From: Trypanosoma brucei
Lineage: Eukaryota
DNA length: 64,000 bases
Reading direction: 5' to 3'
Assembly: GCA_000002445.1 (NCBI GenBank)
Contig: CH464491.1
Location: forward strand, 3,872,001-3,936,000
Part shown: positions 1-47,111 of the stretch, piece after piece
Layout of the letters: every line of letters starts with the position of its first letter
How positions within the stretch are numbered: the stretch's first letter is position 1
Program-made: the position numbers and the translations under genes
The notes under the pieces: generated by a model
What the model was told of the DNA's origin: nothing
Seen by the model: only the letters and a program-made list of their open reading frames with translations
The model's database searches: none

Positions 1-79
1 AAAAAATTAACTGGTTAAGACAGATGAATACAACAAAACGCTTGCGCAAATAAAAAAGAGTGCAAATAATTGGGTAATT

Positions 80-82
<3 letters not shown>

Positions 83-110
<28 letters not shown>
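83..110. repeat. (TA)n microsatellite
   Basis: 'atatatatatatatatatatatatatat'. Confidence 0.95.
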
Positions 111-114
<4 letters not shown>

Positions 115-192
115 AAAAATAACAAGAAGAGAATCACAACTAAAAACAAACACAGAGGATGAATGGAAGGGAGGGGCACGAAAAACGATATC

Positions 193-2652
193 TCACTTGT
201 GGTGTTTCCACGTCGCACAGTACAGTGCAAGCTCCAAGACGGATGGGTTAGACGCCGAAAGGGCTTTGCCATTATTAACCATGCGTTGTAATTCTTTCCA
301 CTTCTTCCACTTTGTCTCAGCCTCCGCAACGTTGGGAAGTGACGAGGAGAAATGCAGTGCCCCGGGATGAACAGTTACCATACGGGGGGAGACATTTATC
401 ATGCGCAATTGAGAGAACTTCTTCACGCGACTCGCAGCAACATAAATGATATGGTTACAGGGAAAGAACCCCTTGCAGTCTAGCAGTATAGAATGATCCA
501 GAGTGAGTCCTTGCGTCTTGTGTACAGTAAATGCATAGGCAGGTACGAGGGGCATTGTGACGACACGTGCAGTACAAAACACTCGGTCTTGCAGATCCGG
601 TAGCGGAAGGGATAACCAAGGTATAGCCACATCCTTTCCGTCAGCGTCCATCCGCACAATGGGAACAATAACGTCGTCATAGTTGACAACGTCAAGCGCC
701 TGTTCCTTCCCATTGCCGCCGTATGAATTTTCTGATGACCCGGCCGAACTGTCACTACTAACCACTGGTCTCCGTGAAAGAGAGGCGTACACTTTCCGCG
801 AAAGTTGGGTTCTGATACCTTTGGGAAATAAATGCCGAGATTTATTTACAGGTTGAAAGCCGATGACGGTACCGGTAGAGCCGTTAACGTACTCATTGCT
901 TAAGTTTCGCAGTAGTATTACCCTACAACCGACCTTTAGTCTCTTGCTTTGGAGTACATTATCACTCTCTATCACCTTCGAGTATGCCTGCTTCAGGGAG
1001 GCGCGCAGAAAAGTACTGAGGGAGTTCTTATGTTTCACTTCAAACAGCACCCTACCAAAAAACCTTCGAGCGGATTTACTTTCGGGCGTGGTACCGTAAT
1101 AACTACGCTCCCATTCTGCTTTCATTTTAGCCACTGGATAGAGACAATCGTACTGCTTACTCACACAAAAGTGTACGTAGACTTTCAGATAGGGTTGTCT
1201 TGAACTATAAGGAGGTGCTACTACAGAAGTGGCTATACCGGAGATGCCACACCGCGTGCATATCTGTCCCACAAACTTCTTCACTTCCCGTTGCCATCTT
1301 CGGGAGGACCTCATCTTCTCTAGGAAGTGCAACACCACCACATCATTACAACCGTCGACGTTGTTTGCTCCTCGACTGTTCGGCGATGCATGACCTTTGG
1401 GGCCGGAAAGACCGGCTGACTCAACTATACTCCGAAATAGATGTTCCTCCCCGTCAAGTTCAAGCATTTTACTTTCATTAAACGCCGCCACAGATCGGCG
1501 GGTGGGATAGAGTTGGATGGCGTTAGGATCTTCCGGATTAACCAACGCAGACCGCATCATGCGACGAGTGAGAACACCTTGACGGAGCTTGTTGAGGTCA
1601 TTCAGAAATGCGGTGTCACCATGCCGCTTAACTTCGCAAAGTTGAAGGTGAAGCAAACAGGTTAAGAAGAGAGGGCTCTCGAAGATTAGACCACTGCTTG
1701 TCCGCTGACGCTCACCTACACAAATATTTTTCACCGCCGACATAATATGTCCCTGGTCTGTGACAGCAGCTGTAGAGCTTACGTCGCTTCTATTTTGTCC
1801 TGCTGTATTCTCGGTGGTTTCGTCCCCTCGGTAACCAATTTTGTTGCCTGCATCACCACCGCCATCTTGAGAAGTACAATTCTCAGTGCTATGCATTAGT
1901 TGCATGAAGTCTCCGCATAATATAACTTGAATGCCACCAAATGGAAGGTGAGGTATCCTTCCAGGTGCCCCGCGGGCGGCAATATCCAGCCCCTCCAAAT
2001 GTCTAGCGTGTAAAAGCGATACTTCATCCACAACAATAACGTCCACTTTGGCAAGAAGACTCTTGCTGTAGCGAAGGATCGAGACGGCACATGATTCGTT
2101 TGTCTCACTGTTACCAACGGAGGTAACTCGTACTCCAAATGTGCTGTGAAAAGTGCTTCCCCCAATGTTGAGTGCAGCTATTCCGGTAGATGCCGTTACG
2201 ACAACGTCAAGGTCCTTCGCCCTTAACGCTGTCACAATACTCTGGATCATATATGACTTACCGACACCAGCACCACCACCAATGAAAAGCGGAGCTCCAT
2301 CAAGGACAAGTGTGAGAGCCCTCCGCTTCTCCTCATTGAGACCGAGTGACGAAAAAGCTGACTCATCACCGCTTGATTTTTCCTTTTCCTGAAGCCCCAG
2401 GTCGTTGTGGCCAGCGCTAGACGCCTGCCGACAGGTCTTCGTGTCTCTTTCCTTGATTTCGTTGACTTCTGCAGCCCCACAACAGGAAGTACTCTCCGGT
2501 GCAGGGGAAAGCTGCCCCCCTTTTTCACCTTCTGCAGCAACGGTCCAAGCAGAAACACCTTTCGCAAGGCGGGATTGCCGTCCTTCTCGCCCCGGTGCAA
2601 AAAGCAGTCTTCCATACGTTAGCAATAGAGTCCTGGTGGAGTTGAGGAGCAT
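193..2652 (-). CDS. PIF1-family 5'-3' DNA helicase (P-loop NTPase)
   Basis: 819-aa ORF. Walker A 'GGGAGVGKSYMIQSIVTALRAKDLDVVVTASTGIAALNIGGSTFHSTFG', Walker B 'VIVVDEVSLL' and a PIF1-like C-terminal region 'AFTVHKTQGLTLD', as in Pif1/RRM3 helicases. Trypanosomatids are known to carry multiple PIF1 paralogues. Confidence 0.85.
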   Translation of the reverse strand: MLLNSTRTLLLTYGRLLFAPGREGRQSRLAKGVSAWTVAAEGEKGGQLSPAPESTSCCGAAEVNEIKERDTKTCRQASSAGHNDLGLQEKEKSSGDESAFSSLGLNEEKRRALTLVLDGAPLFIGGGAGVGKSYMIQSIVTALRAKDLDVVVTASTGIAALNIGGSTFHSTFGVRVTSVGNSETNESCAVSILRYSKSLLAKVDVIVVDEVSLLHARHLEGLDIAARGAPGRIPHLPFGGIQVILCGDFMQLMHSTENCTSQDGGGDAGNKIGYRGDETTENTAGQNRSDVSSTAAVTDQGHIMSAVKNICVGERQRTSSGLIFESPLFLTCLLHLQLCEVKRHGDTAFLNDLNKLRQGVLTRRMMRSALVNPEDPNAIQLYPTRRSVAAFNESKMLELDGEEHLFRSIVESAGLSGPKGHASPNSRGANNVDGCNDVVVLHFLEKMRSSRRWQREVKKFVGQICTRCGISGIATSVVAPPYSSRQPYLKVYVHFCVSKQYDCLYPVAKMKAEWERSYYGTTPESKSARRFFGRVLFEVKHKNSLSTFLRASLKQAYSKVIESDNVLQSKRLKVGCRVILLRNLSNEYVNGSTGTVIGFQPVNKSRHLFPKGIRTQLSRKVYASLSRRPVVSSDSSAGSSENSYGGNGKEQALDVVNYDDVIVPIVRMDADGKDVAIPWLSLPLPDLQDRVFCTARVVTMPLVPAYAFTVHKTQGLTLDHSILLDCKGFFPCNHIIYVAASRVKKFSQLRMINVSPRMVTVHPGALHFSSSLPNVAEAETKWKKWKELQRMVNNGKALSASNPSVLELALYCATWKHHK

Positions 2653-2734
2653 GACGTGGCTCGAGCATTAACCAAGCGACCAACGCGGACAGTGGAGGTT
2701 CACGACATTAGAGGTAACATGCAATGAAAGAAAA

Positions 2735-2760
2735 AAAAGAAAAGAGCAGTAAGTTGTGTG
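2735..2760 (-). promoter_or_regulatory. polypyrimidine tract (on - strand) upstream of PIF1 start; candidate trans-splice acceptor region
   Basis: + strand 'aaagaaaaaaaagaaaagagcag' is a polyY run followed by AG on the minus strand, about 90 nt upstream of the ATG at 2652. Confidence 0.35.
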
Positions 2761-3109
2761 GTGGCCTAAGCCTGCGGCAGTGACGGTGTGCAGTCCCCCT
2801 TAACAACTACAGTACACACAAACAAACAGGAAATACATGCCGTTGGGGTCATATGCACTTACTCCCCTCGGGTAGTGAAGGTAAAACAGGTGTACGAACG
2901 AATAAATAAAATTTATAACTGACCAACATGTACCAAAACAATAAAAAGATTAAACAACAATTTAGAAAATCTAAAAGTCAGCATATTTCTTCATTATGAT
3001 AACTGCATATAGGTGACAGATGTGGGGCGTGTGGGAATGGAGACAAACGTCTAAACAAGAAATATTGAGTTGAGCCTACAGCTTGTTTTCCGCCGTTTAT
3101 TCTATAAAT

Positions 3110-4531
3110 CTATCGCTGACGCAGATTGCACTGCAGTTCCGAAGTTCTATGCATCTGACCAGTTCTTCGTGTAGGCCCCGACTCGGCCCGTTGCTGCATG
3201 GGTGAACCCCGGATTCTGGGTTCCACCGGGTTCCGACTACACTGTGCTCTAAGTTTAGTGCGCAGGTCCAAGAGTTGGCGGTGTTCTTCGGGTGATAAAT
3301 ACACAGAATGACATCGGGCCTCTGGTAGTAGGTACTCCCCTGTATCACCACGAGAAACAATGACGCCGCGGAGTCTGAGAAGGGCAAAGAGCTCTGCTCC
3401 CGTTAAAATGTCCAGGACGGTTCTCTGCGGAGCCGTTTTGCGCGGCAAAACAGGGCGGACGGGGTCGCCACCGACTTGTGATGGGGTCCTTCCTCGAGGT
3501 CCTGAGTTTCCCCTAATCGTGTTTTTACACGAAACACTCTTTTCGGTAACGCGAGGAGAACCTGGAGAGTGCGGTGCGCGGGCGAAAATGGGGCGCATGA
3601 AGTTTGTGCCTTGTACTCGGTGTTGGCATGACCCACGCGAAACCAGAGGCCGAGAAACTTCAGTAACAACGGAACTGCTGCGGACTGTAGGGCGTTTATC
3701 TTCCCCAGCGCACAGATACTCTGTGTCTAACGCACACGAACCACAACCCTTGTCCACATACTGTTTGTATTGTTTCTCAGAACTTTCCCTGACTGGCCCT
3801 TGCGTTTTGTTACTAGGTGTTTCTGCTGTGGCAGTCCATGGCTCATGCAGCGGGCTGTTCTCTGCAGCACTGTTTGAGATATTTCGTTGCTCCACTGGTA
3901 GGTTGTTGACGGATCCCACAGTATCTGAAGGGTGATTACTGCTTGATACCTTTTTGCGCAGCTTCTCACGGAGACGGATCTCCATTGCCTGGAGGGGGTC
4001 AAAAGAGCCACCTACCAGATGAGTTAAGGGTTGAGACGACGACACGTGCACCTGCCTTTCCGCTTGTAAAACTCCCGCTTGTGGGGGACCCCCATTAATG
4101 TTATTATTTTTTGTGTACGGTGCTCCAAGTTGATACGTTGTTTTGATGCTCTCTTGCTCCTTTATGCCCGAGTCACACATTTCTACCTCCTCCACGAGTG
4201 CTGTGGTGCTCCCTTTCCTTCGTGAAGTGTTAAGTGTCTTTATGTTACCATCACCCGCTTCTTCACGGAGCACTGATAGTTTCTCTTCCTTCGTAAAGAT
4301 GCGCTCCGCACTTGATGAAATCGAAGTCTGGCGTTTACGGGGGAGTTCCTCATCAGCTGCGTGTGAAACGATGCTATTCCTTTCATCCTGTTGATAAACT
4401 TCAGGTGATCTGCCGGGCACAAACCCAGCATCAAATTCTTCATCACGCTGAAGGCACTGGCTTATGTTCATTAAACGATCACGCATCTCGTTAATTTTGC
4501 AGTCGACATCGGCCAAAGATTCTGAGGGCAT
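3110..4531 (-). CDS. hypothetical protein, Ser/Arg/Pro-rich (473 aa)
   Basis: Long minus-strand ORF in the same orientation as its neighbours. Low-complexity S/R/P-rich sequence with no recognisable catalytic motif. Confidence 0.5.
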   Translation of the reverse strand: MPSESLADVDCKINEMRDRLMNISQCLQRDEEFDAGFVPGRSPEVYQQDERNSIVSHAADEELPRKRQTSISSSAERIFTKEEKLSVLREEAGDGNIKTLNTSRRKGSTTALVEEVEMCDSGIKEQESIKTTYQLGAPYTKNNNINGGPPQAGVLQAERQVHVSSSQPLTHLVGGSFDPLQAMEIRLREKLRKKVSSSNHPSDTVGSVNNLPVEQRNISNSAAENSPLHEPWTATAETPSNKTQGPVRESSEKQYKQYVDKGCGSCALDTEYLCAGEDKRPTVRSSSVVTEVSRPLVSRGSCQHRVQGTNFMRPIFARAPHSPGSPRVTEKSVSCKNTIRGNSGPRGRTPSQVGGDPVRPVLPRKTAPQRTVLDILTGAELFALLRLRGVIVSRGDTGEYLLPEARCHSVYLSPEEHRQLLDLRTKLRAQCSRNPVEPRIRGSPMQQRAESGPTRRTGQMHRTSELQCNLRQR

Positions 4532-4866
4532 TCACAATGAGTCCACTAATATGTACAAAGAGGAAGGTAAACAAAATACAGTACCGGTATAAAAGTATAT
4601 GGAAAGCCTATAGAGACAAGTGACAAAGCTAGTGTGAACGGTTTAACGTTACTTGGAACTGACAACAGCCGATTTGAGTACCCATGTCAGAGCGGTTCAT
4701 GTTAAATACAGTGAAAATCGCGACACAACAACAAAAAAAAATTCTCAATACAACCTCATACAATGTCACCGTTTTCACCTAGCGCAGTGATACGCGGTTC
4801 CCGTCGTGCGCAACATACCCTCAAACCCACATCGGGAAAGAGTGGTGTACGAGTCCAAAATGCATA

Positions 4867-5808
4867 TCACTTATGATGAATGATGCGTCTCACCGCCGTC
4901 TCCAAATCCCGCCATACCGGAAAGAATTTCTTATTGTGTTTACAAACATTGATTACTTCCAACTGGGAGGTTAGTTCGTTTTCCATAATGTCACGGGAAG
5001 TTTTCCTCCCTGCTACTCGCCTCCTCTCGCTAATGGCACGAAGAAGTCCTTGGTCACCGCTCACAACAATCAAAGGCATATGAACCATTGCGTACGCAAT
5101 TTGCATAATGACACCGTCAGCTGCCTGCTGTTGACCACCACATGGTGTAAAGTGCAAACGCCCCTCGTCCGCGAGGTGCTTCCACACACTTTTCTTTCCT
5201 TGGCCCCAATTCAAGTTATTCACATCGCTATGTCTGGCATCAGCCTCGGACCCGCTGTTGCGTTGGCAAACGACATGTGCATCGGGCAACACTCCATGAT
5301 AACGTGCGAAGCATGAGCTAAAGAAACTCCACACAAATAAGTGATCCAGTACATTGATGTTACTGCCTTCACTTCTCCGCGGTGGGACGCTTTTGAATTG
5401 ATTGAAACCGTAGTTGTCTAGGTCAAGTAGCAAAACAACAGTTTTCCTACCCCCAACCCTGTCCCCTGTCGGCCTCAAATCCCTTTTAAACCGCCCCTGC
5501 AACTTTGAAAGACTCGATGACGCCTTCAACACTTCACAGTAGACACAGTGGCATTCATCACTGACCCACGAATCTCCGTTAATAAGTTTTTCATCATACA
5601 TTCTTGTGGCACCGTCAGCAGGCCCCGCCACACAGGAGAAACCTTCGCTCCCTGGGCGATGTAACTGCACCACGAGAGCGTCGTCATTAGGCGTTAGGGC
5701 AGAAGAACTGCCACTATCTTGAATCGAAGAACAAGCACACTCAGAAACACCTCCCGGTGCGGAGGAGGAATTATCTGCCTCAGCATCGAAGTCTAACTCA
5801 GCGAACAT
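4867..5808 (-). CDS. Zc3h12a/Regnase-like NYN-domain (PIN-like RNase) protein, putative
   Basis: 'RKTVVLLLDLDNYGFN' and 'DGVIMQIAYAMVHMPLIVVSGDQGLLRAISERR' align with the Zc3h12a NYN core 'RPVVIDGSNVA ... [29 protein letters not shown]', keeping the conserved Asp positions. The start is reassigned to the internal Met 'MFAELDFD' at 5808, because the upstream ORF extension 'MWSLSLSLSIYIYIY' is only a translation of the (TA)n(GA)n microsatellite. Confidence 0.5.
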   Translation of the reverse strand: MFAELDFDAEADNSSSAPGGVSECACSSIQDSGSSSALTPNDDALVVQLHRPGSEGFSCVAGPADGATRMYDEKLINGDSWVSDECHCVYCEVLKASSSLSKLQGRFKRDLRPTGDRVGGRKTVVLLLDLDNYGFNQFKSVPPRRSEGSNINVLDHLFVWSFFSSCFARYHGVLPDAHVVCQRNSGSEADARHSDVNNLNWGQGKKSVWKHLADEGRLHFTPCGGQQQAADGVIMQIAYAMVHMPLIVVSGDQGLLRAISERRRVAGRKTSRDIMENELTSQLEVINVCKHNKKFFPVWRDLETAVRRIIHHK

Positions 5809-5820
5809 ATAACTTGAATA

Positions 5821-5824
5821 TATG

Positions 5825-5868
<44 letters not shown>
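5821..5868. repeat. compound microsatellite (TA)n(GA)n
   Basis: 'tatgtatatatatatatatatatatatagagagagagagagagagag', immediately 5' (on the minus strand) of the NYN-like gene. Confidence 0.95.
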
Positions 5869-6169
5869 CCACACAAAAGAAACGTAAAACCTCCCTCTGC
5901 CGCCACTAGAGCTGGGATGCTGAAGAGAAGAAAAAAAAAGGCAGAAGGTGGTAAAATGGAAATCTGCAGTATTGGGAGCATCTTAACCGAGTAATTACGG
6001 AATGTGCATGAGAAAAAAGAAATGGAATGAGTTACAGATAAGTTTGTACGAGCGTGCGAGCACATTCATGTGTCTTCCTATGAATGCACACGAAAACAGT
6101 TGAAGGAAAGGCCCCGATAACAACTGCAATGACGTGTAGATGCATGCACAGTGCATGCAACCTTGTTGA

Positions 6170-8308
6170 TTACTCTTTACGCAGCCTTTTATAGTCTCGC
6201 TCCTCATGGCCAACATCAACATGTGTGCCATTCACCATTTGTTGCGCCCCATGTAGTGCTGATCTCCTCTCACTACTCACAGAAAAGAGGGAAACGCGGC
6301 GACTGCCACGAAGGCCTCCCTCAACAACAAAGCCAGAAGAAAGGAAATCAGTCCAGGCATCAGTGACAATGTCGCTCACTGCTGCGGGCGACAGTCGCTG
6401 AAGTGAAAGGTAGTGCCGGTGCAACTCGCAAACAAAATCATCCGCAGGTGCGTGCTCAGCACCATGTACGCGTAGAGTACGACGGAGTGAATTCAAAACA
6501 GAAGTCATGGACCCTACCCAGCTCGTCAGCAGAGTTCCATCCGCATTTTTGTCCAGTTGACTCATCTCTTTGAAACCAAGGTCAACCATGGGGAGGAGCA
6601 GCTGCCTGACGTCTACTGCGCAGGATATTCCGTGACACAAAAGAAGCAGCCTCGACTCCACAACGGAGCTCCGAACAACAATTAACATCAACGGGATGCT
6701 CAAACAAAAACGCGTTCCACTTGCACATAAATCAGAACACGCACGTCGAATACCACGAAGAAATGCGCCAATGGCCGTGTGCTTCAACCACTCAGCAACC
6801 GTGTTCCCTGCAACGCATTTAAGTTTGTCCTTCACGCTCTCCTCGCACCGCTTCGACACCACGGCAGCCTTGTACACGTCTAGGCACCGCAGGACAGAAA
6901 GGCACACAAACTGCACAGCCTCCACAGCCGAATTGTAATCCACATCGGTCTCTCCACTACAGTAAGCAGACATCACCCATTTGAGCAACTCTGTGTGTCT
7001 CTGCAACAGAAACTCCCAAAGATCCGTATCCAGAAACAATGGGATGTCGCCCCTGTGACGTTCCCCTGTGTAAGCTTCAAACCATCTCAGTAACAATGAG
7101 AGGAGAAACTCAAGACGCTCCAGGTTAGCAGAAGGTGGCGACGACGGATTACACTCCACGATGGATTGCACAGCGGTTGCAAATGCGGTCACCGATCTAA
7201 CGGCTTTACAACTAATGCAACGCACGAGTTCTTCGGGAAACTTAAGCGCTGTTGCATCAGTGCCACACGACCTCTCTTCCTCTTCAACCCCACATTCATA
7301 TTCCTCCTCAACTCCTTTTTGTTGCAATTTGCTCTGCGATTGATGTTTAACGAACTTGTCATGAGCCAGAATGCACCACAGCCCCTTAAGAGTATCCCCC
7401 GCCCTCTTCAGTAACACTCGCTGCTTCGACTCGTTGACCTCAAACGACTTGTAATCTTCAAGTAATTCACCACTAACAAGTTCCAAACTAGGGACATCAA
7501 AGTCACGCTTGAAGCTACGCCTGATAAGTACCTCTGCAGCTTCTTCATGCCGTTCCAGAAGCAAAGTGTCAGTAAGCCACAAACGCTCCGCCTTACCCAC
7601 AGAAGCATAGAAACCGAACAGATGGGCTGATTCGCAAGCAAGCCTCTGAAAACTATAAAGCTCTCGGAAGTACCGTTTTCGCAAAAGAATGGCACCCTCC
7701 CCCATATCATCCGCACTCTCCTCTGCTGCTATACGAACTTCTTCCAAGTCCGCGCCATTACCATCCATTCCGTCTCCTGCAACAGGCGAGACGGAGATAA
7801 TTTCATCTTCGTGAGGGAATCGGGAGACAAGGAGTTTCAGACGCAGCGAGCAACTATCCACAGTACCCCAGAAAGCAACAACAAATTGCTCACGCTGCTG
7901 GGAAAGAAATGCGCCACACAGAACTTCCAATTCACAACATCCTGTGTGAAGGGTGGTACTTGAACCATTACTACTGTTTCCGCCATCAGTGCCGTTGTTG
8001 TTTGTGTGATCCATAAACTCACAAAGCCCTTCTTGCCATTTTCTCCAATGCAATGGTCGAAGGACAATCAGTTGTGATGCCTTCATGTAGACGTTATGGT
8101 AATGCCTAACCGCCTCGCACACCGCTGAAGTGGGTAGTGACGCCAAGGGTGGTAAAAGGAGGGGGTCACACCGCGCAGCCTCCAGAGTTCGGAGCGTATT
8201 ATCCCACTCTTTGATGGAAAAACATACCGCGTCTCCAAGCAACGCCGAGCCCACACTGCAGAATTTGTTCACCTGTTGCTTTGAACGAACACTACGCAGA
8301 GCAGCCAT
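6170..8308 (-). CDS. hypothetical protein (712 aa)
   Basis: Long uninterrupted minus-strand ORF with no recognisable motif. Typical of kinetoplastid conserved hypotheticals. Confidence 0.55.
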   Translation of the reverse strand: MAALRSVRSKQQVNKFCSVGSALLGDAVCFSIKEWDNTLRTLEAARCDPLLLPPLASLPTSAVCEAVRHYHNVYMKASQLIVLRPLHWRKWQEGLCEFMDHTNNNGTDGGNSSNGSSTTLHTGCCELEVLCGAFLSQQREQFVVAFWGTVDSCSLRLKLLVSRFPHEDEIISVSPVAGDGMDGNGADLEEVRIAAEESADDMGEGAILLRKRYFRELYSFQRLACESAHLFGFYASVGKAERLWLTDTLLLERHEEAAEVLIRRSFKRDFDVPSLELVSGELLEDYKSFEVNESKQRVLLKRAGDTLKGLWCILAHDKFVKHQSQSKLQQKGVEEEYECGVEEEERSCGTDATALKFPEELVRCISCKAVRSVTAFATAVQSIVECNPSSPPSANLERLEFLLSLLLRWFEAYTGERHRGDIPLFLDTDLWEFLLQRHTELLKWVMSAYCSGETDVDYNSAVEAVQFVCLSVLRCLDVYKAAVVSKRCEESVKDKLKCVAGNTVAEWLKHTAIGAFLRGIRRACSDLCASGTRFCLSIPLMLIVVRSSVVESRLLLLCHGISCAVDVRQLLLPMVDLGFKEMSQLDKNADGTLLTSWVGSMTSVLNSLRRTLRVHGAEHAPADDFVCELHRHYLSLQRLSPAAVSDIVTDAWTDFLSSGFVVEGGLRGSRRVSLFSVSSERRSALHGAQQMVNGTHVDVGHEERDYKRLRKE

Positions 8309-8500
8309 TATTCGTACTTCAGTGCCCTGCTAAAACAGAAGGCCAGTATGTGTGCGAAGACCAGGGTGGTATCCTGCCGCCACTCGAGGAATATTACGTT
8401 CCAACGTCGCTGTTCGTGTGCCGGGAGGTAACGCACATGCTTCCGTAGTAATAATAGGTAGACAAATAGAAATGGCGACCGTGAAAAAAAAAAAATAATA

Positions 8501-8540
8501 ACACACACACACACACACACAGACAGAGAGGGAGAGAGAG
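8501..8540. repeat. microsatellite (AC)n followed by (GA)n-like tract
   Basis: 'acacacacacacacacacacagacagagagggagagagag', preceded by an A13 run. Confidence 0.9.
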
Positions 8541-8962
8541 CATACAATTCGAGCAAGGGCAGTGGCGCCACCACTTCAAGATAGTAAAAATGGAAGACAA
8601 ATTAGAGACTGCTCACGTAGGTTAACACCCACGGGCAGGTACAGCATTATTTTTTTAATCTACTACTTTTTTAAAAAGGTAGAGTTGTGAACTTGAGCTG
8701 CGCCAATATGAGAGCATGCGATGAGCACATACGCGCAACGCACGTCTCGTTATGCGCATTGTGGATTCACTGCTTCTGTACAGCAAAATCACACTTCAGT
8801 ACGCCCTTCAAATTTTCCCATGCATTTTCGAGATATTGTTCAACTGTTCAGCTCTGCAGAACTACTCCCTTCAAATGAAACGTCCTCCTTCTTCTTTTAT
8901 ATAACAAAAGGTTTTCAAACCAATTGTGCAAGTCTATAAATATCAGCAGTGCCCGGTGGCCG

Positions 8963-8981
8963 ATATATATATATATATATA
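8963..8981. repeat. (TA)n microsatellite
   Basis: 'atatatatatatatatata', intergenic. Confidence 0.9.
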
Positions 8982-9055
8982 ACTGTGATGACAAAAACAA
9001 AGTGCCCGGGTTAGTGGGAGGTAATGGCCCACACACACATCTAGACTCATCACCA

Positions 9056-9727
9056 TTACATCTTCCTTACACATGCCATTTTGGCAAAGAAATCGGATAA
9101 CTTCATTTGACTTTTTGGAGGTGTTGGAATGCCCCCTTGAGCACGTAAGGGAGATTTGCCAGTTGGCGTTGTATTTCCCACTCCACTAATCCCACTTTTT
9201 ATGGCATCCCCTTGTGGAAAGAGTTCGCAAACTGTGGGAACCGCAGAAGTGGAGTCATTGTTGTTTTCCATAATGTCTGTAGAGCTGGGATGGTCAGGGG
9301 AACCGGAAAATGGGCTCAGAAGTGCAGACGAGCCATGCTGTGATGACGGCGACACATCACCCTTTACCACCTTCGGCACGGTAGGTGGATTATTTCCCCT
9401 GAAACATGTGGAAGGTGTTTGTTCCTGTGATGTGGTGGCTGTTGTGGTAGTGGTGGTGGCACCACTGGGTGATGGGTGGTCTAACCGGTCGACGAGGTTC
9501 ACCTTCACGACCCCAGCGGCAAATGCAAATGCAGCCATTTTCTCCACACCATCTCCACCACGGCGTGCAATATTCAACTCCGCCGCTGAACTATTACCCT
9601 CTGCGATGACATTTGTTCTTTCGACTGGCACCCCATTATGCAACATCGAATCTGCCATAACAGGTTCAGTGCGCATAACCTTCGTTGGTGGATTGTATTC
9701 ATCGTCGTCATCCAAAAGCAAACTCAT
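9056..9727 (-). CDS. hypothetical Ser/Thr/Pro-rich protein with C-terminal PIP-box-like motif
   Basis: 223-aa ORF whose C-terminus 'KSQMKLSDFFAKMACVRKM' matches the PCNA-interacting peptide consensus Q-x-x-[LIM]-x-x-[FY]-[FY] with flanking basic residues. The remainder is low-complexity, including a poly-Thr run. Confidence 0.45.
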   Translation of the reverse strand: MSLLLDDDDEYNPPTKVMRTEPVMADSMLHNGVPVERTNVIAEGNSSAAELNIARRGGDGVEKMAAFAFAAGVVKVNLVDRLDHPSPSGATTTTTTATTSQEQTPSTCFRGNNPPTVPKVVKGDVSPSSQHGSSALLSPFSGSPDHPSSTDIMENNNDSTSAVPTVCELFPQGDAIKSGISGVGNTTPTGKSPLRAQGGIPTPPKSQMKLSDFFAKMACVRKM

Positions 9728-10573
9728 CTTCGGCCCTCTCAGCTTTCACACGTCCTTTTGTGTTTCCGTAAAAGTTTTCAGCCCTTGAACAAACGCAAAT
9801 TCTTTAAAATATAAAAATACATGTACATAAAGTGGTAAAAAAATAACAATGAAAATAGAGGGGAACATGGAAATGTTACAATGAGCATTGAAACACAGTA
9901 CAAGTAGTCACCAGAGTGTAGTGTATCGGAGGAGGTGCGATATATTCAAAAAAAATGTACACATATCTTTTTAAAAGGTACAATAAAGGTACAAATACGG
10001 GGGCACCGCCGAATGGGCACATAGTCCCGCAGTAGGAACCAAATCATGTCCTTCAAGGGAAGGGTTAGCTGCAGGGGTATAGCAAGAAAGAAAACGGGAA
10101 AAAATACAAGGCAACATAATGAAAACAACACAAACAAAATCAACCGCTCCTTTAAATAGAGATACAAAAATGCCTTTCCTTTCCCCCTTCCCTCACTACA
10201 TATTTCCTCTCATTTCCTCCCTGAACCCCAACAAAACCTCGTTTGGTAGTTGCATGCGCTCCCTGTGACGAAATAAAATCAGTGACAATACAACATTATG
10301 ATACATCACTTGACAGGTACAAAAAAATAATGGACAGACGAAGACGACTGTAACGGATCGGTTATCTCCAAATAAAAGTACAACGTATACGCATATATAT
10401 ATAATATTTTACTTAGCCACGCCGTATAACTGCGTACATAGATGGACGAGAGACAAATGTTCATGTGCCCACCTCTGTCTGCATATATTCACGCTTATGC
10501 AAAACTAAGAGCACACGTGACGATGTTTCCCTGAAAATACAAAAAAAAATCAAGAAAGACAGTCACTTCCTAC

Positions 10574-11326
10574 CTAGAAATGCAGAGGTAAACTTTCGGT
10601 AGGAGAGTCAGCTGGCGTCAATTCAAGTGTTCTTTCAAACCCCTTAAATACCGGTGGAGTAGCAAAATGGACATCACCCGCGGAGCGGCGCGTCGCTGAC
10701 CGCAGAGCGCTCGACCCATCTTCAGAAAACATGGTTGTTTTACCATCAGTTGCACAGCTTGGGCTCTGTAGCATCATATCCGAATAATCAGGTGTACCAC
10801 TTTGTGGGGTCCGAGCTCTAAGATAAGTGGCGTAGAGACAATCCCTTTCGGCTGGGTCGATTGGCATCACTACTCGTGGAGATACTCCACCGCTTTGGGG
10901 ACTGCAATACCGCGACTGCTGACGCTGTTGAGGTTTTCGTTGTTGCCCCGAAGTTGTGTTGCTAAATGCATTTAAACGCCCGCTTGCTGCTTTCTCTGAC
11001 TTCTTGGATTTCAAGTTTGCTCCGGTATCTTTGTCATCTGGCTGAATGAGTTGCAGTCCCTTCGGAAGTCGGGGGTCGACGCGAACCTTCAGTTGACTGC
11101 GGGTGGTGTTGTTAAACTTCGCTACAGCCTGCATTACTAGTTTAGCGTAGCACCGGTTGAACTGCTCACCATTCTGCCGATTAAGCGCTAATTCAACCAT
11201 ATCCGGTGCTATGAAGAACCGCTTCTGCAGAATAAAATTGAGTTTGTTTCGGTGACCGAACAGTTCCCCCGGGGTACGCGGCAACTTGCGAAGCCCTTCG
11301 AATAAGTCATCTTTCTTCCACTGCAT
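10574..11326 (-). CDS. hypothetical protein (about 250 aa)
   Basis: Minus-strand ORF. The ORF-track N-terminus 'MEKIKKKRKTKGKKKK' is translation of a pyrimidine tract, so the start is placed at the internal Met 'MQWKKDDLFEGL' (about 11326). No recognisable domain. Confidence 0.4.
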   Translation of the reverse strand: MQWKKDDLFEGLRKLPRTPGELFGHRNKLNFILQKRFFIAPDMVELALNRQNGEQFNRCYAKLVMQAVAKFNNTTRSQLKVRVDPRLPKGLQLIQPDDKDTGANLKSKKSEKAASGRLNAFSNTTSGQQRKPQQRQQSRYCSPQSGGVSPRVVMPIDPAERDCLYATYLRARTPQSGTPDYSDMMLQSPSCATDGKTTMFSEDGSSALRSATRRSAGDVHFATPPVFKGFERTLELTPADSPTESLPLHF

Positions 11327-12551
11327 TCCCTTTTCTTTTTTCTTTCTACTGTGCGATACCTTTTTCCTGGGTCTTTTCTTCTTCTTTCCTTTTGTTTTCC
11401 TTTTCTTTTTGATTTTCTCCACAATCCTTCGCTTACTTTCTTATTTTCCCACACGAGAGCTTTAGTTTCCGCTCCCCCTGTCAGTTTAACCCTTCTGGAT
11501 AAATTTATAAGTATCAGTTCTTTGTTTGCTTTTCCCAACGACTTTACAAGTTTCCTACACCACTAGTAAAGAAAAAAAGAAAATGCCGCCACGGTTTTAC
11601 AACTGAAGAAAGTTGAACGACACTCAGCACCTTTTGAGTTGTCCTTATTCTTTTTTCCGTACAGCGCTTCAGTGGAGATTTCTTTTCAGTTGTCTTTGTT
11701 CCCCTTGCGAGCACTTCCTAAAAACCCTGTTAGAAGTTTGTTTGTTTGTTTTGTTATGAATGGCAGGTGTCTTCGTAAATTTATTTTGGGAGCTTTTAGA
11801 AAAGCAGCTTAAAAAGAAAAAAGAACAAATGTTCCTCTTCTTTTTTCCCCCTTAAATTAAGGTCGAGGGAGCAACCAATGCGGAAAAAAGCAACAAAAAG
11901 GAAAATGTAAAGGGAAGTGAAGGCGTTTGATAATTGATTGAGTGAAGGACAGTAAAGTTTTGTGCGGGGGAAATCTCCAAAGGGGGGGGGGAAGAGGACC
12001 CCATGGTCTGATGAGAGAAACAATTAGAGGTTACAAGGGGGAAAAAGCGCATAGCGGCAGCGTTGCAAACATACGTGCACAAATACATTAGAGTATGCAA
12101 CATCAAAATAGTGCTATTTAGTTTGATTGCAGCGCATGGGCATGCACGCGGAAGCGCGACATTAGATGTTCTTCACACTAATTTACAGTGGTAACCGGTT
12201 CCAGCGTGACGGATCGGATGTGCCTGGTAGTTCGTGGACTCCGGTCAACCTGCTCGATGTGTATTTAAAAATCGCTTCGGCACCGGAATACTCCATAAAA
12301 AACGACGACAACAACAAAATAAAAAAGAAAAAAAAGGTCCCTACGGGAATCCCTCCGTTCCACAAACCGCCACACGTCACTGAATCAGAAAAACCCGCTC
12401 GCTACAATTGTGCAGACTGTGGACCTTCAGTTTCGTTGCAATTAACACAAATCTGCTTACCATGTTTTAGTGCTCGTGCATACAAAAAACACTAAATTTA
12501 TTAAGGTTTTCATTTCGTTAGTTGCCGTGTCAGCGGCACTTTAACAAGTAC

Positions 12552-14756
12552 TTAGCGCTCAAACAGGAAGACGCCTCGTCCGTCCCTTAAACTCATTGCA
12601 AATCGATCCCCTCCCTCAGAAATTGATACACAAGTGACTCTATTGGCGATGGGTTCTGGCAAGTGGGTTTGGTGAAACTGACCACACTCACTGTGCGTGG
12701 AACAATAAACCCCCAACCTGCGCGAAAAAGATGCCTGAAGTGTTTCTACCGTCACCCTACCCCCATTTTCCACTTCGCAGAGTAACGCTAACGGATCAGC
12801 ACGATAAAAGGTTAGGATTTCTTCACCACCAGGCCGTCCAGAGTGAAAGGGTTGCCATGCGGCCACAGCACCGTCATAGAGTCCAGTAATGATTGTTCCC
12901 GAAACATGATCTACTGCCGCTGAGAACCGATCAAAAATGGCGTCGCTTTCATAGAGTGAGCGTAAGTACGGTTCTACGTAAGGCATAAGACGGACCATGT
13001 CGCACGGTTCTGAGGTGCGGCGCAGGTCCCACAGCTTGAGGGAAAAGTAATCACGCGTTACGATGTGATCAGTACCTATAAAACCGGCGGCTGAAACACT
13101 ACATAATATTTCGCCGTAGTCTTGTAAGCGAGAGTTCCATCCTGCTCCAGCCCTCCCTCGCACATATGTACTGTAGCGACGTTGTGCGCCAGTCGCTGCC
13201 TCGCGCAAATCGCCGATGCCGAGGAACCCCGAGTTCCGACCAACGAAAAATAGGGAGTTGTGGGTTGGGTGAAACCCGGCCGTCGTGACCAACTCCACTA
13301 CGTCGTCCATGTTTCCAGAAGGTGGACGCATGTCTGCGATGCGCGATCCGTTAGAGCCGTCTGCGCACTCAAAGTTCCACCAGAACACTTCAAGATCATC
13401 CACGCTCAGAAAAGATTGATCATCAGCACAAACACTAAGACCATGTATTCGGTTGATGTGATTTCCCGAATAAACGCGTGCGGGAAGTATCAGAGACGGC
13501 AGTGTTGCGCAAGGAAAGTATTTTGTCTTGGAAAGTTCTGGTCCGACAATGGACTCCATCTCCGGAAAGGCATGGAACATTGAAAGTCCTTCACGCTGCA
13601 CCCGAAACAGCTTAATAACTCGGTCGTTTGAAGTCAAATAGCTCACCGTGCTTGGGGACAGATGGGGTCTAAGAAACTGAAAGCAGTTCACAGACTGCGA
13701 TATTGGAACCGAAGTTAAGCAATCCAACTCCTCGACATATGCCTGATGCGTGTGTTTTCGCACCGACTGTTGCTGGAATCCGAATGTGTCAAGCTGCTGA
13801 CGGGGAGAAACCGAAGGAATGGAAGTCGAAATACTCGAAACATCCATGTCGGTGCGACACTGGCTTGCTGTGGTGACAACAGATTCACTCTTCCTTTGGC
13901 TGGAAAGTGATGGTCGTGAGAGTTTTGCATCTCCTACAGGTATTTCACAGTAGTTCACTCGTCCATTGGCATCCCCGACTCCGATCGCAATAAGTGAGGA
14001 ACCGGTTGCAAAATTTGGTAGCACTGACAATGCCATGCTGTTCACTCTCGAGGGGATTGTATTCGCCACCTTTCTAAGAACGCTGCGCATGCCTCCTGCA
14101 TCTCCACTGTTGGTCACCATGAAATCTCCTATGGCTTCCAACTCGGCGCTATCAGTCGCTTCGGGTTTATGTGAACAAGGACCCCATCTGGGCATAACGT
14201 CATGTGTACTAAACGGATGGCAAAGCTTCTGAAATAGTTTGAATCCATTCCCACCACCACGACTCAAGTAAGAGGAGTTGTTATCCGAATCAGCAACATC
14301 TTTTGACCACTCGGGGGATTCAACATTTCTACCACTACTTCCGCTGGCAGTAGCAGTAACAGCAGCAGTGCCCTTGGTAGGCAACTTTCCTTCTCGATTA
14401 GAACCACCATCTCTGCGCGCGCCTCGCTTTCCCCTATTATTGTGATGACGCGGACGGTCCTTTCTAAGCTTTGTTTCCACACCTTTTGGTTCGTTTAGCC
14501 CAGTTACTTCGTTCTCCTGCACTTGCGACTTGTATAGGGAGCAACTCTCAAGGCATTTCCCCCCTCGTTTACGTTGCAGTTGCTCGTCTCGCACTCGGGA
14601 TTGGCGGTCGGACTTCGGCAGGTGCGAGCGGTGAGGCACTTCACTTTCCGCCCGCGAGCCACGGCAGGATAATGTCTCTGCACTACTTTCCATAGAACAG
14701 CATGGCGAGGGGGAAGGTGAGGGCGAGTGGTTGCCGTCCTGATCAGACATGATCAC
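12552..14756 (-). CDS. protein phosphatase 2A regulatory subunit B (B55/PR55 family) with N-terminal extension
   Basis: The C-terminal ~500 aa align with B55: 'DDLEVFWWNFE' (cf. 'DDLRINLWHLE'), 'TTAGFHPTHNSLFFVGRNSG' (cf. 'TAAEFHPNSCNTFVYSSSKG'), 'TRDYFSLKLWDLRRTSEP' (cf. 'TRDYLSVKIWDLNMENRP') and 'YLRSLYESDAIFDRF' (cf. 'YLRSKLCSLYENDCIFDKF'). The first ~230 aa form a Ser-rich extension. Confidence 0.85.
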   Translation of the reverse strand: MIMSDQDGNHSPSPSPSPCCSMESSAETLSCRGSRAESEVPHRSHLPKSDRQSRVRDEQLQRKRGGKCLESCSLYKSQVQENEVTGLNEPKGVETKLRKDRPRHHNNRGKRGARRDGGSNREGKLPTKGTAAVTATASGSSGRNVESPEWSKDVADSDNNSSYLSRGGGNGFKLFQKLCHPFSTHDVMPRWGPCSHKPEATDSAELEAIGDFMVTNSGDAGGMRSVLRKVANTIPSRVNSMALSVLPNFATGSSLIAIGVGDANGRVNYCEIPVGDAKLSRPSLSSQRKSESVVTTASQCRTDMDVSSISTSIPSVSPRQQLDTFGFQQQSVRKHTHQAYVEELDCLTSVPISQSVNCFQFLRPHLSPSTVSYLTSNDRVIKLFRVQREGLSMFHAFPEMESIVGPELSKTKYFPCATLPSLILPARVYSGNHINRIHGLSVCADDQSFLSVDDLEVFWWNFECADGSNGSRIADMRPPSGNMDDVVELVTTAGFHPTHNSLFFVGRNSGFLGIGDLREAATGAQRRYSTYVRGRAGAGWNSRLQDYGEILCSVSAAGFIGTDHIVTRDYFSLKLWDLRRTSEPCDMVRLMPYVEPYLRSLYESDAIFDRFSAAVDHVSGTIITGLYDGAVAAWQPFHSGRPGGEEILTFYRADPLALLCEVENGGRVTVETLQASFSRRLGVYCSTHSECGQFHQTHLPEPIANRVTCVSISEGGDRFAMSLRDGRGVFLFER

Positions 14757-15422
14757 GCTGGGAATTCGATGAAATAAGCTTCGCGACCAAAAAACAAGTT
14801 CCCCCCTTTTGGAACGCGATGACGTTCAACCAGCGCGGAGTCCTTGTAAAAGGAGACAAAACTGGAAAGGGGGAAGAAAGGAATAATCAACGATTAAACT
14901 AAAGATAAACAAATGTTGCTTTCTAGGCAAGTTCAAAAGAAAGAAAACGTTGAAGAAAGTGTGAATGACAGGGGAACAACACAAAAAAAAAAGAAAGCGT
15001 TCTGAGGAGGGAGCGAATGTATGTGACGGTTGTGGTCCTGATTTACTTTTTTTAAGCATTAGTTACAGCTAAGGGGATGCGTGCAAATCGTGGTCTTCGT
15101 ACGACCTACGCGCGCAGCTGGTTGGAAAAGAGAGAAGAGAAAACGGTATGAAAAACGTTGTAGAACCCACAGTCACAAACACATATTCACATGTGTATAT
15201 ACTACAACCTGGAACCGAGAAGTACAAGGGGGATGAGATTTGCAAAAAATAAATAAATAGGCCTTCTCGTGAGAAACAGCAAAGATACGTCTATGGATGT
15301 AACTTTATATATAAAAAAGGAGACAAAATATTTCGATGATTCTATACCGTTATCTATGGATGTGCACAAATTTGTGTATGTGTCAGTATGTGTATTTTTA
15401 TATACAAAGATGGGTTTGTCAA

Positions 15423-17360: not shown

Positions 17361-17379
17361 CACTAGGAGCGATCTCTTT

Positions 17380-17445
17380 TCCTTAGAGGGGAAAACACAC
17401 ACACACAAAAAAAAAGTAAACTGGAAGGGGAGGATAAAATGCGGG
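17380..17445 (-). promoter_or_regulatory. polypyrimidine tract plus AG upstream of the 15423..17360 gene; candidate SL trans-splice acceptor
   Basis: + strand 'acacacacacaaaaaaaaagtaaactggaaggggaggataaaatg' is a CA/polyY run on the minus strand, directly upstream of the inferred ATG. Confidence 0.35.
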
Positions 17446-17683
17446 TGTAACGAAGCTCTTTTCCCCCTTTTAAAGAGACATAACAGACAACTTACAGTTG
17501 CAATGAGGAAACGATGCTTAACTGCTCAACGTCCCAAGCGGACATCAATGCATGAAGGCAGCACAAAATATGCAATACTACAGACCTTATTATAGTAATC
17601 CTTTCAGCTCCTCCAGGAGGTAAAAGGTAACTGAAACATCCAACAAAGTTTAGTATTGCTGTTATTTTTTTTTTAAGTTTATC

Positions 17684-46649: not shown

Positions 46650-47111
<462 letters not shown>

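What the first reader, a model, noticed from the sequence alone, without database searches (positions are those of the whole stretch)
4867..5808. Regnase/Zc3h12a-like NYN RNase-domain protein, with a microsatellite abutting its start
Two sequence blocks match the catalytic core of Zc3h12a-type NYN (PIN-like) endoribonucleases, but no adjacent CCCH finger is present. Kinetoplastid gene expression is controlled almost entirely post-transcriptionally, so a Regnase-like endonuclease is a plausible mRNA-decay effector. The ORF track merges the gene with a translated (TA)n(GA)n microsatellite ('SLSLSLSIYIYIYIY'). Length variation in that repeat could shift the annotated start, or affect 5'UTR/trans-splicing.
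Basis: partly seen in the sequence, partly recalled or inferred. Interest (0 to 1): 0.6.

Follow-up and report, generated by a model that had tools for sequence, protein, structure and literature searches.

The report
Divergent NYN-type nuclease-like trypanosome gene
This is a real, conserved but uncharacterised Trypanosoma brucei gene whose protein most likely carries a divergent NYN-type (PIN-like) metal-dependent nuclease domain behind a probable zinc-binding module; it cannot be shown to be a Regnase/Zc3h12a relative, and the microsatellite next to it is ordinary, strain-variable non-coding DNA.

Summary
The gene is real. It lies on the minus strand at 4867..5808 and encodes 313 aa. It is identical to T. 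brucei TREU927 XP_829539.1/Q381V4 ("hypothetical protein, conserved") and has orthologues across trypanosomatids.

It is not demonstrably Zc3h12a-type:
- No family member hits Pfam RNase_Zc3h12a or NYN.
- BLASTP and profile-profile comparison with Regnase-1 are not significant (E 0.07-0.29).
- Fold searches return only generic Rossmann-like folds.

The only recurring sequence signal is Pfam PIN_11, the ZNF451 C-terminal domain of the NYN group. The query scores E 2.8e-4, below the curated cut-off. Fifteen of 56 relatives also match, with a best E of 2.5e-5.

Four aspartates (D129, D131, D231, D252) are invariant across 59-63 divergent sequences, and N132 and S/T250 nearly so. They sit where PIN-like active-site residues sit. 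An H50...C86-x-C88-x2-C91 cluster, probably zinc-binding, precedes the domain.

The (CT)10(TA)~15 repeat lies 10-60 nt upstream of the ATG and is not coding. It is 24 nt shorter in T. b. gambiense and absent in three other trypanosomes. It probably lies inside the 5'UTR.

Verdict: a new, small family of a known kind. Function is untested. Interest is modest.

The parts
4867..5808 (-). Coding sequence, 313 codons plus TGA stop. It encodes the conserved hypothetical protein XP_829539.1 / Q381V4_TRYB2.
   Evidence: ORF list and sequence. 100% identical to T. brucei TREU927 and T. equiperdum proteins. Orthologues at 30-50% identity in 18 other kinetoplastid sequences, all starting with MF.E..F.
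5773..5808 (-). Residues 1-12 (MFAELDFDAEAD). A conserved N-terminal aromatic and acidic motif, followed by a variable disordered linker up to residue 43.
   Evidence: M1, F2, E4 and F7 are invariant in 19 kinetoplastid sequences and kept in most distant relatives. AF2 pLDDT is about 40 for residues 1-43.
5533..5679 (-). Residues 44-92. An N-terminal module with a putative zinc site: H50 in the H-x-P-G-D motif, G78-D79-x-W81, and C86-H-C88-x2-C91-E92 at the start of a long helix (89-110).
   Evidence: Conservation counts in 63 sequences: H50 50/51, C86 55/56, C88 55/55, C91 56/56, W81 51/54. pLDDT is about 90 for residues 44-63 and 84-113 in the deeper model. Zinc binding is inferred, not shown.
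4870..5448 (-). Residues 121-313. A Rossmann-like alpha/beta domain with five parallel strands: b1 124-129, b2 157-163, b3 218-223, b4 246-250, b5 284-287. Interpreted as a divergent NYN-type PIN-like nuclease domain.
5413..5424 (-). Motif 1: D129-L-D131-N132, at and just after the C-terminal end of strand b1.
   Evidence: D129 59/59, D131 59/59, N132 58/59. Same D-x-x-N spacing as Regnase-1 D141...N144 (own reading of the sequence confirmed).
5116..5148 (-). Motif 2: T221-P-C223-G-G-x2-Q228-A-A-D231. It spans the end of strand b3 and the N-terminus of the cross-over helix.
   Evidence: T/S221 62/63, C223 56/63, Q228 59/63, D231 63/63. Aligned in register with Regnase-1 FTPS...DD and MARF1 NAAD by hhalign.
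5053..5061 (-). Motif 3: S250-G-D252, directly after strand b4.
   Evidence: S/T250 63/63, D252 63/63. Aligned with Regnase-1 S242-N-D244 and MARF1 S-T-D. The same stretch gives weak matches to the SGDxDLLQL motif of 5'-3' exonucleases.
5818..5868 (-). Compound microsatellite, (CT)10 then (TA)~15 on the gene strand, 10-60 nt upstream of the ATG. Non-coding.
   Evidence: TRF. 24 nt shorter in two T. brucei/gambiense assemblies and replaced by an N-gap in T. equiperdum. Absent upstream of the T. vivax, T. cruzi and T. theileri orthologues.
5809..5874 (-). Artefactual upstream extension of the mechanical ORF (GTG start, 'MWSLSLSLSIYIYIY...'). Not coding.
   Evidence: The conserved protein N-terminus starts at the ATG at 5808 in all orthologues. 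There is no ATG between 5919 and 5809.
5920..5951 (-). Strong polypyrimidine tract (CCACCTTCTGCCTTTTTTTTTCTTCTCTTC) directly followed by AG at 5921/5920. This is the likeliest spliced-leader acceptor. It would give a 5'UTR of about 111 nt that contains the microsatellite.
   Evidence: Sequence. Nearly invariant in four Trypanozoon assemblies. The splice-site assignment is inferred from the general polyY-then-first-AG rule, not measured.
5813..5814 (-). First AG after the (CT)10(TA)n repeat. A possible alternative acceptor that would leave a 4-nt 5'UTR.
   Evidence: Sequence. Inference only.

Best explanation
Window 4867..5808 (minus strand) is a genuine T. brucei protein-coding gene for a 35-kDa protein. 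It belongs to a small eukaryotic family that has no Pfam model.

The protein has four parts:
1. A conserved N-terminal MFxExxF acidic motif.
2. A disordered linker.
3. A probable zinc-binding module (H50, C86, C88, C91).
4. A C-terminal five-stranded alpha/beta domain. This is best read as a divergent NYN-type member of the PIN-like nuclease superfamily. Its nearest defined family is PIN_11, the C-terminal domain of metazoan ZNF451.

The likely mechanism is as follows. The carboxylates of D129 and D131 (end of strand 1), D231 (start of the cross-over helix after strand 3) and D252 (after strand 4) hold one or two Mg2+/Mn2+ ions. N132, S/T250, T/S221 and Q228 assist. The bound metal activates water to cut a phosphodiester bond, most probably in single-stranded RNA. 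The zinc module and the basic C-terminal helices would bind the substrate.

What is shown: gene reality, family conservation, the invariant residues and their place in the predicted secondary structure. What is inferred: the PIN-like assignment (probable), metal binding, nuclease activity, RNA as substrate, and any role in mRNA decay.

The microsatellite is non-coding, lineage-specific and length-polymorphic. It most probably lies inside the 5'UTR, downstream of a stronger polypyrimidine/AG acceptor.
For: Gene reality:
- Identical protein in TREU927 and T. equiperdum, and orthologues at 30-50% identity in 18 kinetoplastid sequences.
- 62 representatives at E<=1e-3 among 1.84 billion proteins.

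PIN-like/NYN assignment:
- The only Pfam match for the query is PIN_11, E 2.8e-4.
- The same family is matched by 15 of 56 relatives, best E 2.5e-5.
- Both halves of the model are matched collinearly. HMM positions 5-37 fall on the DLDN region in P0027, 41-102 on the TPCGG..AD..SGD region in others, and 21-101 in P0035.
- 3 of 19 members also give weak matches to 5_3_exonuc_N, and the profile gives a non-significant PDB match (E 2.7) to a 5'-3' exonuclease. Both matches lie on the SGD..LL motif.
- PIN_11 is described as a minimal NYN variant with at least four conserved Asp, plus conserved Cys/His (PMC5499597).
- hhalign against MARF1 NYN gives E 0.026 over 52 columns, in register at AAD and S-x-D. 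The negative controls give either only a six-residue match or nothing.

Active site:
- D231 and D252 are 63/63. D129 and D131 are 59/59. N132 is 58/59. S/T250 is 63/63.
- These residues lie at strand ends and a helix start of a confidently modelled domain (pLDDT 86.5, pTM 0.87).

Untranslated region:
- The repeat is polymorphic and absent in other species.
- There is no upstream ATG.
Against: - Every PIN_11 match I could inspect is below Pfam's gathering score of 26.6 bits.
- No match to NYN, RNase_Zc3h12a or any other nuclease family reaches significance.
- Searches of PDB sequences with the single protein and with two family profiles find nothing significant.
- I could not inspect model coordinates. 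Spatial clustering of the four Asp, and of the His/Cys ligands, is therefore not verified.
- I found no experimental data for this gene.
Confidence: 0.6

Rival explanations
1. It is a true member of the Regnase/Zc3h12a family (Pfam PF11977) that has lost the CCCH finger, and it acts as a Regnase-like mRNA-decay endonuclease.
For: In-register motif resemblance: D-x-x-N after strand 1, FTP at the end of strand 3, an acidic residue at the helix start, and VVS-x-D after strand 4. Trypanosomes rely on post-transcriptional control, and a PIN endonuclease (ESB2) is now known to tune ESAG mRNAs (PMC13056571).
Against: No PF11977 hit in any of the roughly 75 family members scanned. hhalign E is 0.29 and 0.12, with probability at or below 0.5%. 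BLASTP shows nothing in register. Regnase D225 and D248 are not conserved: they correspond to A230 and a variable residue at 256. The closest Pfam model is PIN_11, which sits in a different group (NYN) from Zc3h12a (PRORP group) in PMC5499597. MARF1 scores better than Regnase.
Confidence: 0.07
2. It is a HAD-like phosphatase or phosphotransferase, or another Rossmann-like enzyme using a DxD motif, and not a nuclease.
Against: The HAD alignment covers only 6 residues. No HAD Pfam family appears at E<=10 for the query, at E<=1 for 19 members, or at E<=0.01 for 56. There is no conserved Ser/Thr at the end of strand 2 (W-x-F-[FY]-G instead). There is also no invariant Lys/Arg that could serve as HAD motif III. 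The invariant T-P-C-G-G...Q-A-A-D block after strand 3 has no HAD counterpart but matches the NYN pattern.
Confidence: 0.08
3. The domain is PIN-like in origin but acts as a non-catalytic binding or scaffold module, or it targets DNA rather than RNA.
For: The nearest family, PIN_11 of ZNF451, has no demonstrated nuclease activity and is reported to mediate binding to p300 (PMC5499597). The S-G-D-x-x-L-L motif resembles that of DNA 5'-3' exonucleases. The gene sits two genes from a PIF1 helicase in a gene order kept in a distant relative.
Against: Near-absolute conservation of four Asp plus Asn and Ser/Thr over very divergent sequences is typical of a working metal site. Characterised NYN-type enzymes (Regnase-1, MARF1, KHNYN, Rae1/YacP) cut RNA; this is established knowledge, not tested here. 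Synteny in kinetoplastid polycistrons carries little functional information.
Confidence: 0.2

Closest known systems
PIN_11 (Pfam PF18479), the C-terminal domain of metazoan ZNF451/COASTER. NYN group of the PIN-like superfamily (Matelska et al. 2017, PMC5499597).
   Same: It is the only Pfam family matched, and the match recurs in 15/56 relatives. Both are minimal NYN-type domains with at least four conserved Asp. Both are associated with conserved Cys/His residues suggesting zinc binding. In both cases nuclease activity is predicted but unproven.
   Different: All matches I inspected are below the gathering score. PIN_11 was described as specific to Eumetazoa and fused to C2H2 fingers. Here the family is from Euglenozoa and other protists. 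The protein stands alone, and the Cys/His cluster lies N-terminal to the domain rather than inside it. I could not obtain a ZNF451 sequence for a direct profile comparison.
MARF1/LabA-type NYN domains (Pfam PF01936; PDB 6fdl, 5yaa).
   Different: No PF01936 HMM hit. The second Asp of the NYN 'D-x-D' after strand 4 is missing here, and an extra invariant Asp (D131) follows strand 1. There are no OST-HTH or RRM partner domains.
Regnase-1/ZC3H12A NYN domain (Pfam PF11977; PDB 3v32/3v33).
   Same: Motif-level resemblance in register (FTP, acidic helix start, VVS-x-D). D141, N144, D226, S242 and D244 have counterparts in D129, N132, D231, S250 and D252.
   Different: The similarity is not statistically detectable. 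There is no CCCH finger, and no counterpart of D225 or D248. It lies in a different group of the PIN-like classification.
T. brucei ESB2 (Tb927.1.1820), a PIN-domain RNA endonuclease of the expression-site body (PMC13056571).
   Same: It is a kinetoplastid-conserved PIN-like protein. It gives a precedent for endonucleolytic control of trypanosome mRNAs.
   Different: It is a different gene on chromosome 1. Its PIN domain is SMG6-like, not NYN-like. No link to the present gene is known.

Membership tests
RNase_Zc3h12a (PF11977, Regnase family) | Significant match to the family HMM or profile | tested here: not met
   No PF11977 hit for the query at E<=10, for 19 orthologues at E<=1, or for 56 relatives at E<=0.01. 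hhalign against a 25-sequence Zc3h12a profile gives E 0.12, probability 0.5%. BLASTP shows no in-register hit.
RNase_Zc3h12a (PF11977, Regnase family) | Catalytic set D141, N144, D225/D226, S242, D244, D248 (numbering recalled from the Regnase-1 literature; not checked in a paper here) | tested here: not met
   Counterparts exist for D141, N144, D226, S242 and D244 (D129, N132, D231, S/T250, D252). The D225 position is Ala/Val (A230, 47/63 Ala). The D248 position (256) is variable and hydrophobic.
RNase_Zc3h12a (PF11977, Regnase family) | CCCH zinc finger directly after the nuclease domain | tested here: not met
   The domain runs to the C-terminus at residue 313. There is no zf-CCCH Pfam hit.
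PIN_11 (PF18479) | Score at or above Pfam's gathering threshold (26.6 bits) | tested here: not met
   The query scores 21.5 bits, E 2.8e-4. P0027, P0031 and P0035 score 16.8-18.1 bits. The best E among 56 members is 2.5e-5, and no table I saw reached the cut-off.
PIN_11 (PF18479) | At least four conserved Asp in the predicted active site of a minimal NYN fold (PMC5499597) | tested here: met
   D129, D131, D231 and D252 are invariant. The domain has five strands and no helical insert detected after strand 2 beyond short turns.
NYN group / PIN-like superfamily (Pfam clan CL0280) | Three-layer alpha/beta/alpha fold with a parallel sheet, and acidic residues at the C-terminal ends of strands 1 and 4 and on the helix after strand 3 | tested here: met
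   AF2 secondary structure places D129 at the end of b1 (124-129), D231 at the start of helix 229-240 after b3, and D252 after b4 (246-250).
NYN group / PIN-like superfamily (Pfam clan CL0280) | Structural neighbours are predominantly PIN/NYN domains | tested here: inconclusive
NYN group / PIN-like superfamily (Pfam clan CL0280) | Metal-dependent nuclease activity | not testable with these tools
   Requires biochemistry.
HAD superfamily | Motifs I (DxDxT/V), II (S/T at the end of strand 2), III (K/R) and IV (acidic residues after strand 4) | tested here: not met
   Motif I-like DLDN and a motif IV-like S/T-G-D are present. There is no conserved S/T at the end of strand 2 and no invariant K/R. 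No HAD Pfam hit appears. hhalign aligns only 6 residues.

The most novel reading that the evidence does not exclude
The gene represents a previously undefined family of stand-alone 'zinc-module plus NYN' nucleases. The family is spread through Euglenozoa and at least one unrelated compact-genome protist, and is sister to the ZNF451 PIN_11 domain, which was thought to be restricted to Eumetazoa. In trypanosomes it would be an active, so far unnoticed endoribonuclease in mRNA or non-coding RNA turnover.
Probability: 0.3. Interest if true: 0.55.

Novelty: new member of a known kind. Interest (0 to 1): 0.35.

Why it matters
Trypanosomes regulate nearly all genes after transcription, yet few endonucleases acting on their mRNAs are known. 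The recently described ESB2 shows that such enzymes can have specialised roles (PMC13056571).

A conserved, uncharacterised protein with an intact-looking NYN-type metal site and its own zinc module is a reasonable candidate for knock-down and activity tests. Defining the family would also extend the PIN_11/NYN branch of the PIN-like superfamily beyond animals.

As things stand this is a sequence-based prediction about a 'conserved hypothetical' protein. It is useful for annotation but not surprising. The microsatellite is an ordinary polymorphic intergenic repeat.

Tried and rejected
Sequence searches that found nothing:
- NCBIfam scan: no hit.
- PDB sequence searches with the protein and with two family profiles: nothing significant. 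The best hits were de novo designed proteins and CNTF.

Structure searches:
- Foldseek against PDB found nothing at E<=0.001.
- AFDB50 was not available.

Further homologue search:
- A profile search of the 5.8-billion-protein collection with the enlarged alignment added no named distant relatives.

Literature:
- Searches for Q381V4, XP_829539, EAN80427, TCIL3000_11_15100, TEOVI_000858600 and PF18479 returned nothing.
- I could not establish the Tb927.11 gene number. Attempts through the neighbouring PIF1 helicase and coatomer epsilon failed. I give protein accessions instead.

Ideas considered and set aside:
- A real fusion with a PIF1 helicase, suggested by P0024 (1461 aa). That model also contains a segment of the intervening 473-aa gene, in the same order as in the window. 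It is therefore most likely three neighbouring genes merged by a gene predictor.
- ESB2 and ciliate Smg6L as identities. These are different proteins.
- A CheY-like receiver domain. hhalign gives E 0.54.
Full report
**1. What is in the sequence**

On the minus strand an ORF runs from the ATG at 5808..5806 to a TGA at 4869..4867 and encodes 313 codons. The mechanical ORF list starts it earlier, at a GTG at 5874.

Tandem Repeats Finder gives (AT)15.5 at 5818..5848 and (AG)10.5 at 5848..5868. On the gene strand this reads (CT)10 followed by (TA)~15, ending 10 nt before the ATG. Similar dinucleotide repeats occur in several other intergenic stretches of the window.

The real start is the ATG at 5808. 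Every orthologue begins with the same MF.E..F motif. There is no other ATG between the likely splice acceptor and 5808.

**2. Identity of the gene**

The protein is 100% identical to T. brucei TREU927 XP_829539.1/EAN80427.1 (UniProt Q381V4, 'hypothetical protein, conserved') and to T. equiperdum TEOVI_000858600. T. b. gambiense has a 314-aa version.

Orthologues at 30-50% identity exist in these species:
- T. congolense
- T. vivax
- T. cruzi
- T. rangeli
- T. grayi
- T. theileri
- Leptomonas
- Lotmaria
- Strigomonas
- Phytomonas

An exhaustive HMM search of 1.84 billion cluster representatives found only 62 proteins at E<=1e-3, so the family is small.
- One named member is from the euglenid Neometanema.
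- One distant member lies on a same-strand, polycistron-like contig.
- Another lies on a compact eukaryotic contig with genes on both strands, including Tsr1, ANAPC3 and an RGS protein. The family is therefore not confined to Euglenozoa.

I found no paper that mentions the gene under any accession I could derive.

**3. Is it a Zc3h12a-type NYN RNase?**

By the usual criteria it is not.
- Pfam gives a single match for the query: PIN_11 (PF18479), E 2.8e-4, 21.5 bits, below the 26.6-bit cut-off, over residues 198-257.
- Neither RNase_Zc3h12a nor NYN appears for the query, for 19 orthologues or for 56 more distant relatives.
- I checked my recollection of the Regnase-1 NYN sequence against PDB 3v32; it matched 100%. 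I then compared it with the family.
  - BLASTP shows nothing in register.
  - hhalign with the 63-sequence family profile gives E 0.29 against the single sequence.
  - hhalign gives E 0.12 against a 25-sequence Zc3h12a profile.
It is in register with the Regnase catalytic residues, but it cannot be distinguished from chance.

**4. What supports a PIN-like/NYN assignment**

*4a. Recurrent PIN_11 matches.* PIN_11 is matched by 15 of 56 relatives, with a best E of 2.5e-5. Different members match different, collinear parts of the model:
- HMM positions 5-37 on the DLDN region in P0027.
- Positions 41-102 on the TPCGG..AD..SGD region in P0031.
- Positions 21-101 in P0035.

Matelska et al. 2017 (PMC5499597) defined PIN_11 as the C-terminal domain of ZNF451. 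They describe it as a minimal NYN variant with at least four conserved Asp and with conserved Cys/His, specific to Eumetazoa. They place it in the NYN group. RNase_Zc3h12a sits in their PRORP group.

*4b. Weak matches to 5'-3' exonucleases.* Three of 19 members give weak matches to 5_3_exonuc_N, another PIN-like family. The profile's PDB search gives a non-significant hit (E 2.7) to a 5'-3' exonuclease. Both matches lie on the S-G-D-x-x-L-L motif.

*4c. hhalign against MARF1 and controls.* The MARF1 NYN sequence was verified against 6fdl.

| Comparison | E-value | Columns aligned |
|---|---|---|
| MARF1 NYN | 0.026 | 52, in register at A-A-D and S-x-D |
| HAD beta-phosphoglucomutase (control) | 0.1 | 6 (VLFDLD only) |
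| CheY (control) | 0.54 | no meaningful alignment |

*4d. Conservation.* Counts are over 63 sequences that are often only 20-30% identical.

| Residue | Conserved |
|---|---|
| D231 | 63/63 |
| D252 | 63/63 |
| D129 | 59/59 |
| D131 | 59/59 |
| N132 | 58/59 |
| S/T250 | 63/63 |
| T/S221 | 62/63 |
| Q228 | 59/63 |

*4e. Position in the fold.* The AlphaFold2 model built with the deeper alignment is confident (pLDDT 86.5, pTM 0.87). It has five beta-alpha units.
- D129 is the last residue of strand 1.
- D231 opens the helix after strand 3.
- D252 follows strand 4.

These are the positions of active-site residues in PIN-like folds. UniRef already labels the T. vivax orthologue 'NYN domain-containing protein'.

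**5. What weakens it**

- Foldseek against PDB finds nothing at E<=0.001.
- The AFDB library was not available.
- I could not read model coordinates. The spatial clustering of the four Asp is inferred from topology only.

**6. The HAD alternative**

- The family lacks a conserved Ser/Thr at the end of strand 2.
- It lacks any invariant Lys/Arg for HAD motif III.
- No HAD model is hit at any threshold.
- The invariant T-P-C-G-G..Q-A-A-D block after strand 3 has an NYN counterpart but no HAD counterpart.

**7. The N-terminal half**

The family does have a conserved module before the domain:
- H50 in an H-x-P-G-D..F motif (50/51).
- G-D-x-W81.
- C86-[HR]-C88-x2-C91-E (55/56, 55/55 and 56/56) at the start of a long helix.

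Three Cys plus one His with this spacing is the signature of a zinc knuckle. Zinc binding is my inference.

The extreme N-terminus (MFxExxF followed by acidic residues) is also conserved, although it is predicted to be disordered. This suggests a short binding motif.

**8. The microsatellite**

Alignment of the upstream region from four Trypanozoon assemblies gave the following:
- The repeat is 24 nt shorter in T. b. gambiense DAL972 and in a second T. brucei assembly.
- It is replaced by a run of N in T. equiperdum.
- The flanks are almost invariant.

The T. vivax, T. cruzi and T. theileri orthologues have pyrimidine-rich upstream regions but no such repeat. The repeat is therefore lineage-specific and polymorphic.

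About 55 nt further upstream lies a much more conventional acceptor, CCACCTTCTGCCTTTTTTTTTCTTCTCTTC followed by AG at 5921/5920. By the general rule for trypanosome trans-splicing (polypyrimidine tract, then first AG; established knowledge, not measured here), this is the likeliest spliced-leader site. The 5'UTR would then be about 111 nt and would contain the repeat.

The (CT)10 run could serve as a second polypyrimidine tract for the AG at 5814/5813. That would leave a 4-nt UTR. Only SL-mapped RNA-seq can decide between the two. Repeat length cannot change the protein.

**9. Surroundings**

All ORFs of 250 aa or more in the window lie on the minus strand, which indicates one polycistronic unit.

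The neighbours are a 712-aa and a 473-aa protein without Pfam domains, then a PIF1 helicase at 193..2652. Further upstream are NAD synthase, DNA polymerase alpha/epsilon subunit B and coatomer epsilon.

A 1461-aa EukProt model (P0024) joins three things in the window's gene order: the family domain, a piece of the 473-aa protein and the PIF1 helicase. I read this as a merged gene model reflecting conserved synteny, not as a fusion.

**10. Verdict**

The broad idea of a PIN-like/NYN nuclease domain is probably right. The specific label 'Regnase/Zc3h12a-like' is not supported.

The protein is best described as the T. brucei member of a small, undefined family of stand-alone NYN-type proteins with an N-terminal probable zinc module, nearest to PIN_11. 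Nuclease activity, RNA as substrate and any role in mRNA decay remain untested.

Novelty: a new member (a small new family) of a known kind. Interest: modest.

Noticed in passing
window 193..4531 (minus strand), and protein P0024: A 1461-aa EukProt gene model (P0024) contains three parts in order: the NYN-like family domain, a segment homologous to the 473-aa ORF at 3110..4531 (E 1e-10), and a PIF1 helicase 35% identical to the ORF at 193..2652. This is the same gene order as in the window. It is most likely three syntenic genes merged by a predictor, which means the gene order is conserved over a long evolutionary distance.
   Followed up: partly
window 5773..5808 (residues 1-12): The extreme N-terminus MFxExxF followed by an acidic run is invariant in kinetoplastids and kept in most distant family members. 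AlphaFold predicts it to be disordered (pLDDT about 40). It may be a short linear binding motif or an N-terminal recognition signal.
   Followed up: no
L001:2940-2990 (T. equiperdum CZPT02000805.1): The T. equiperdum assembly has a run of N exactly where the (CT)n(TA)n repeat lies, so the repeat broke the assembly there. Its length in that strain is unknown.
   Followed up: no
window 3110..4531 (minus strand); L002, L003: The downstream 473-aa gene, which has no Pfam domain, is called as 458 aa in T. b. gambiense. In assembly GCA_003543875.1 it is split into 176-aa and 162-aa genes. The cause is either length variation or frameshift errors.
   Followed up: no
window 1..64000: All 20 ORFs of 250 aa or more lie on the minus strand, which indicates a single polycistronic transcription unit. 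Recognisable genes include a PIF1 helicase (193..2652), NAD synthase (17684..18568), DNA polymerase alpha/epsilon subunit B (21714..23717) and coatomer epsilon (24193..25206). There is also a 3299-aa ORF at 29352..39251.
   Followed up: partly
window 19793..20078: Tandem repeats with periods of 21-45 nt lie inside the 371-aa ORF at 19686..20801. The best is two 45-nt copies at 98% identity. This is a coding repeat array in a protein with no Pfam hit.
   Followed up: no
L007 and L008 (environmental contigs): Distant family members sit on two very different kinds of eukaryotic contig. One has all genes on one strand, like a euglenozoan polycistron (L007). The other is compact with genes on both strands, including Tsr1, ANAPC3 and an RGS protein (L008). 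The family therefore reaches beyond Euglenozoa. No Leishmania protein appeared in any hit list, and I did not resolve why.
   Followed up: partly
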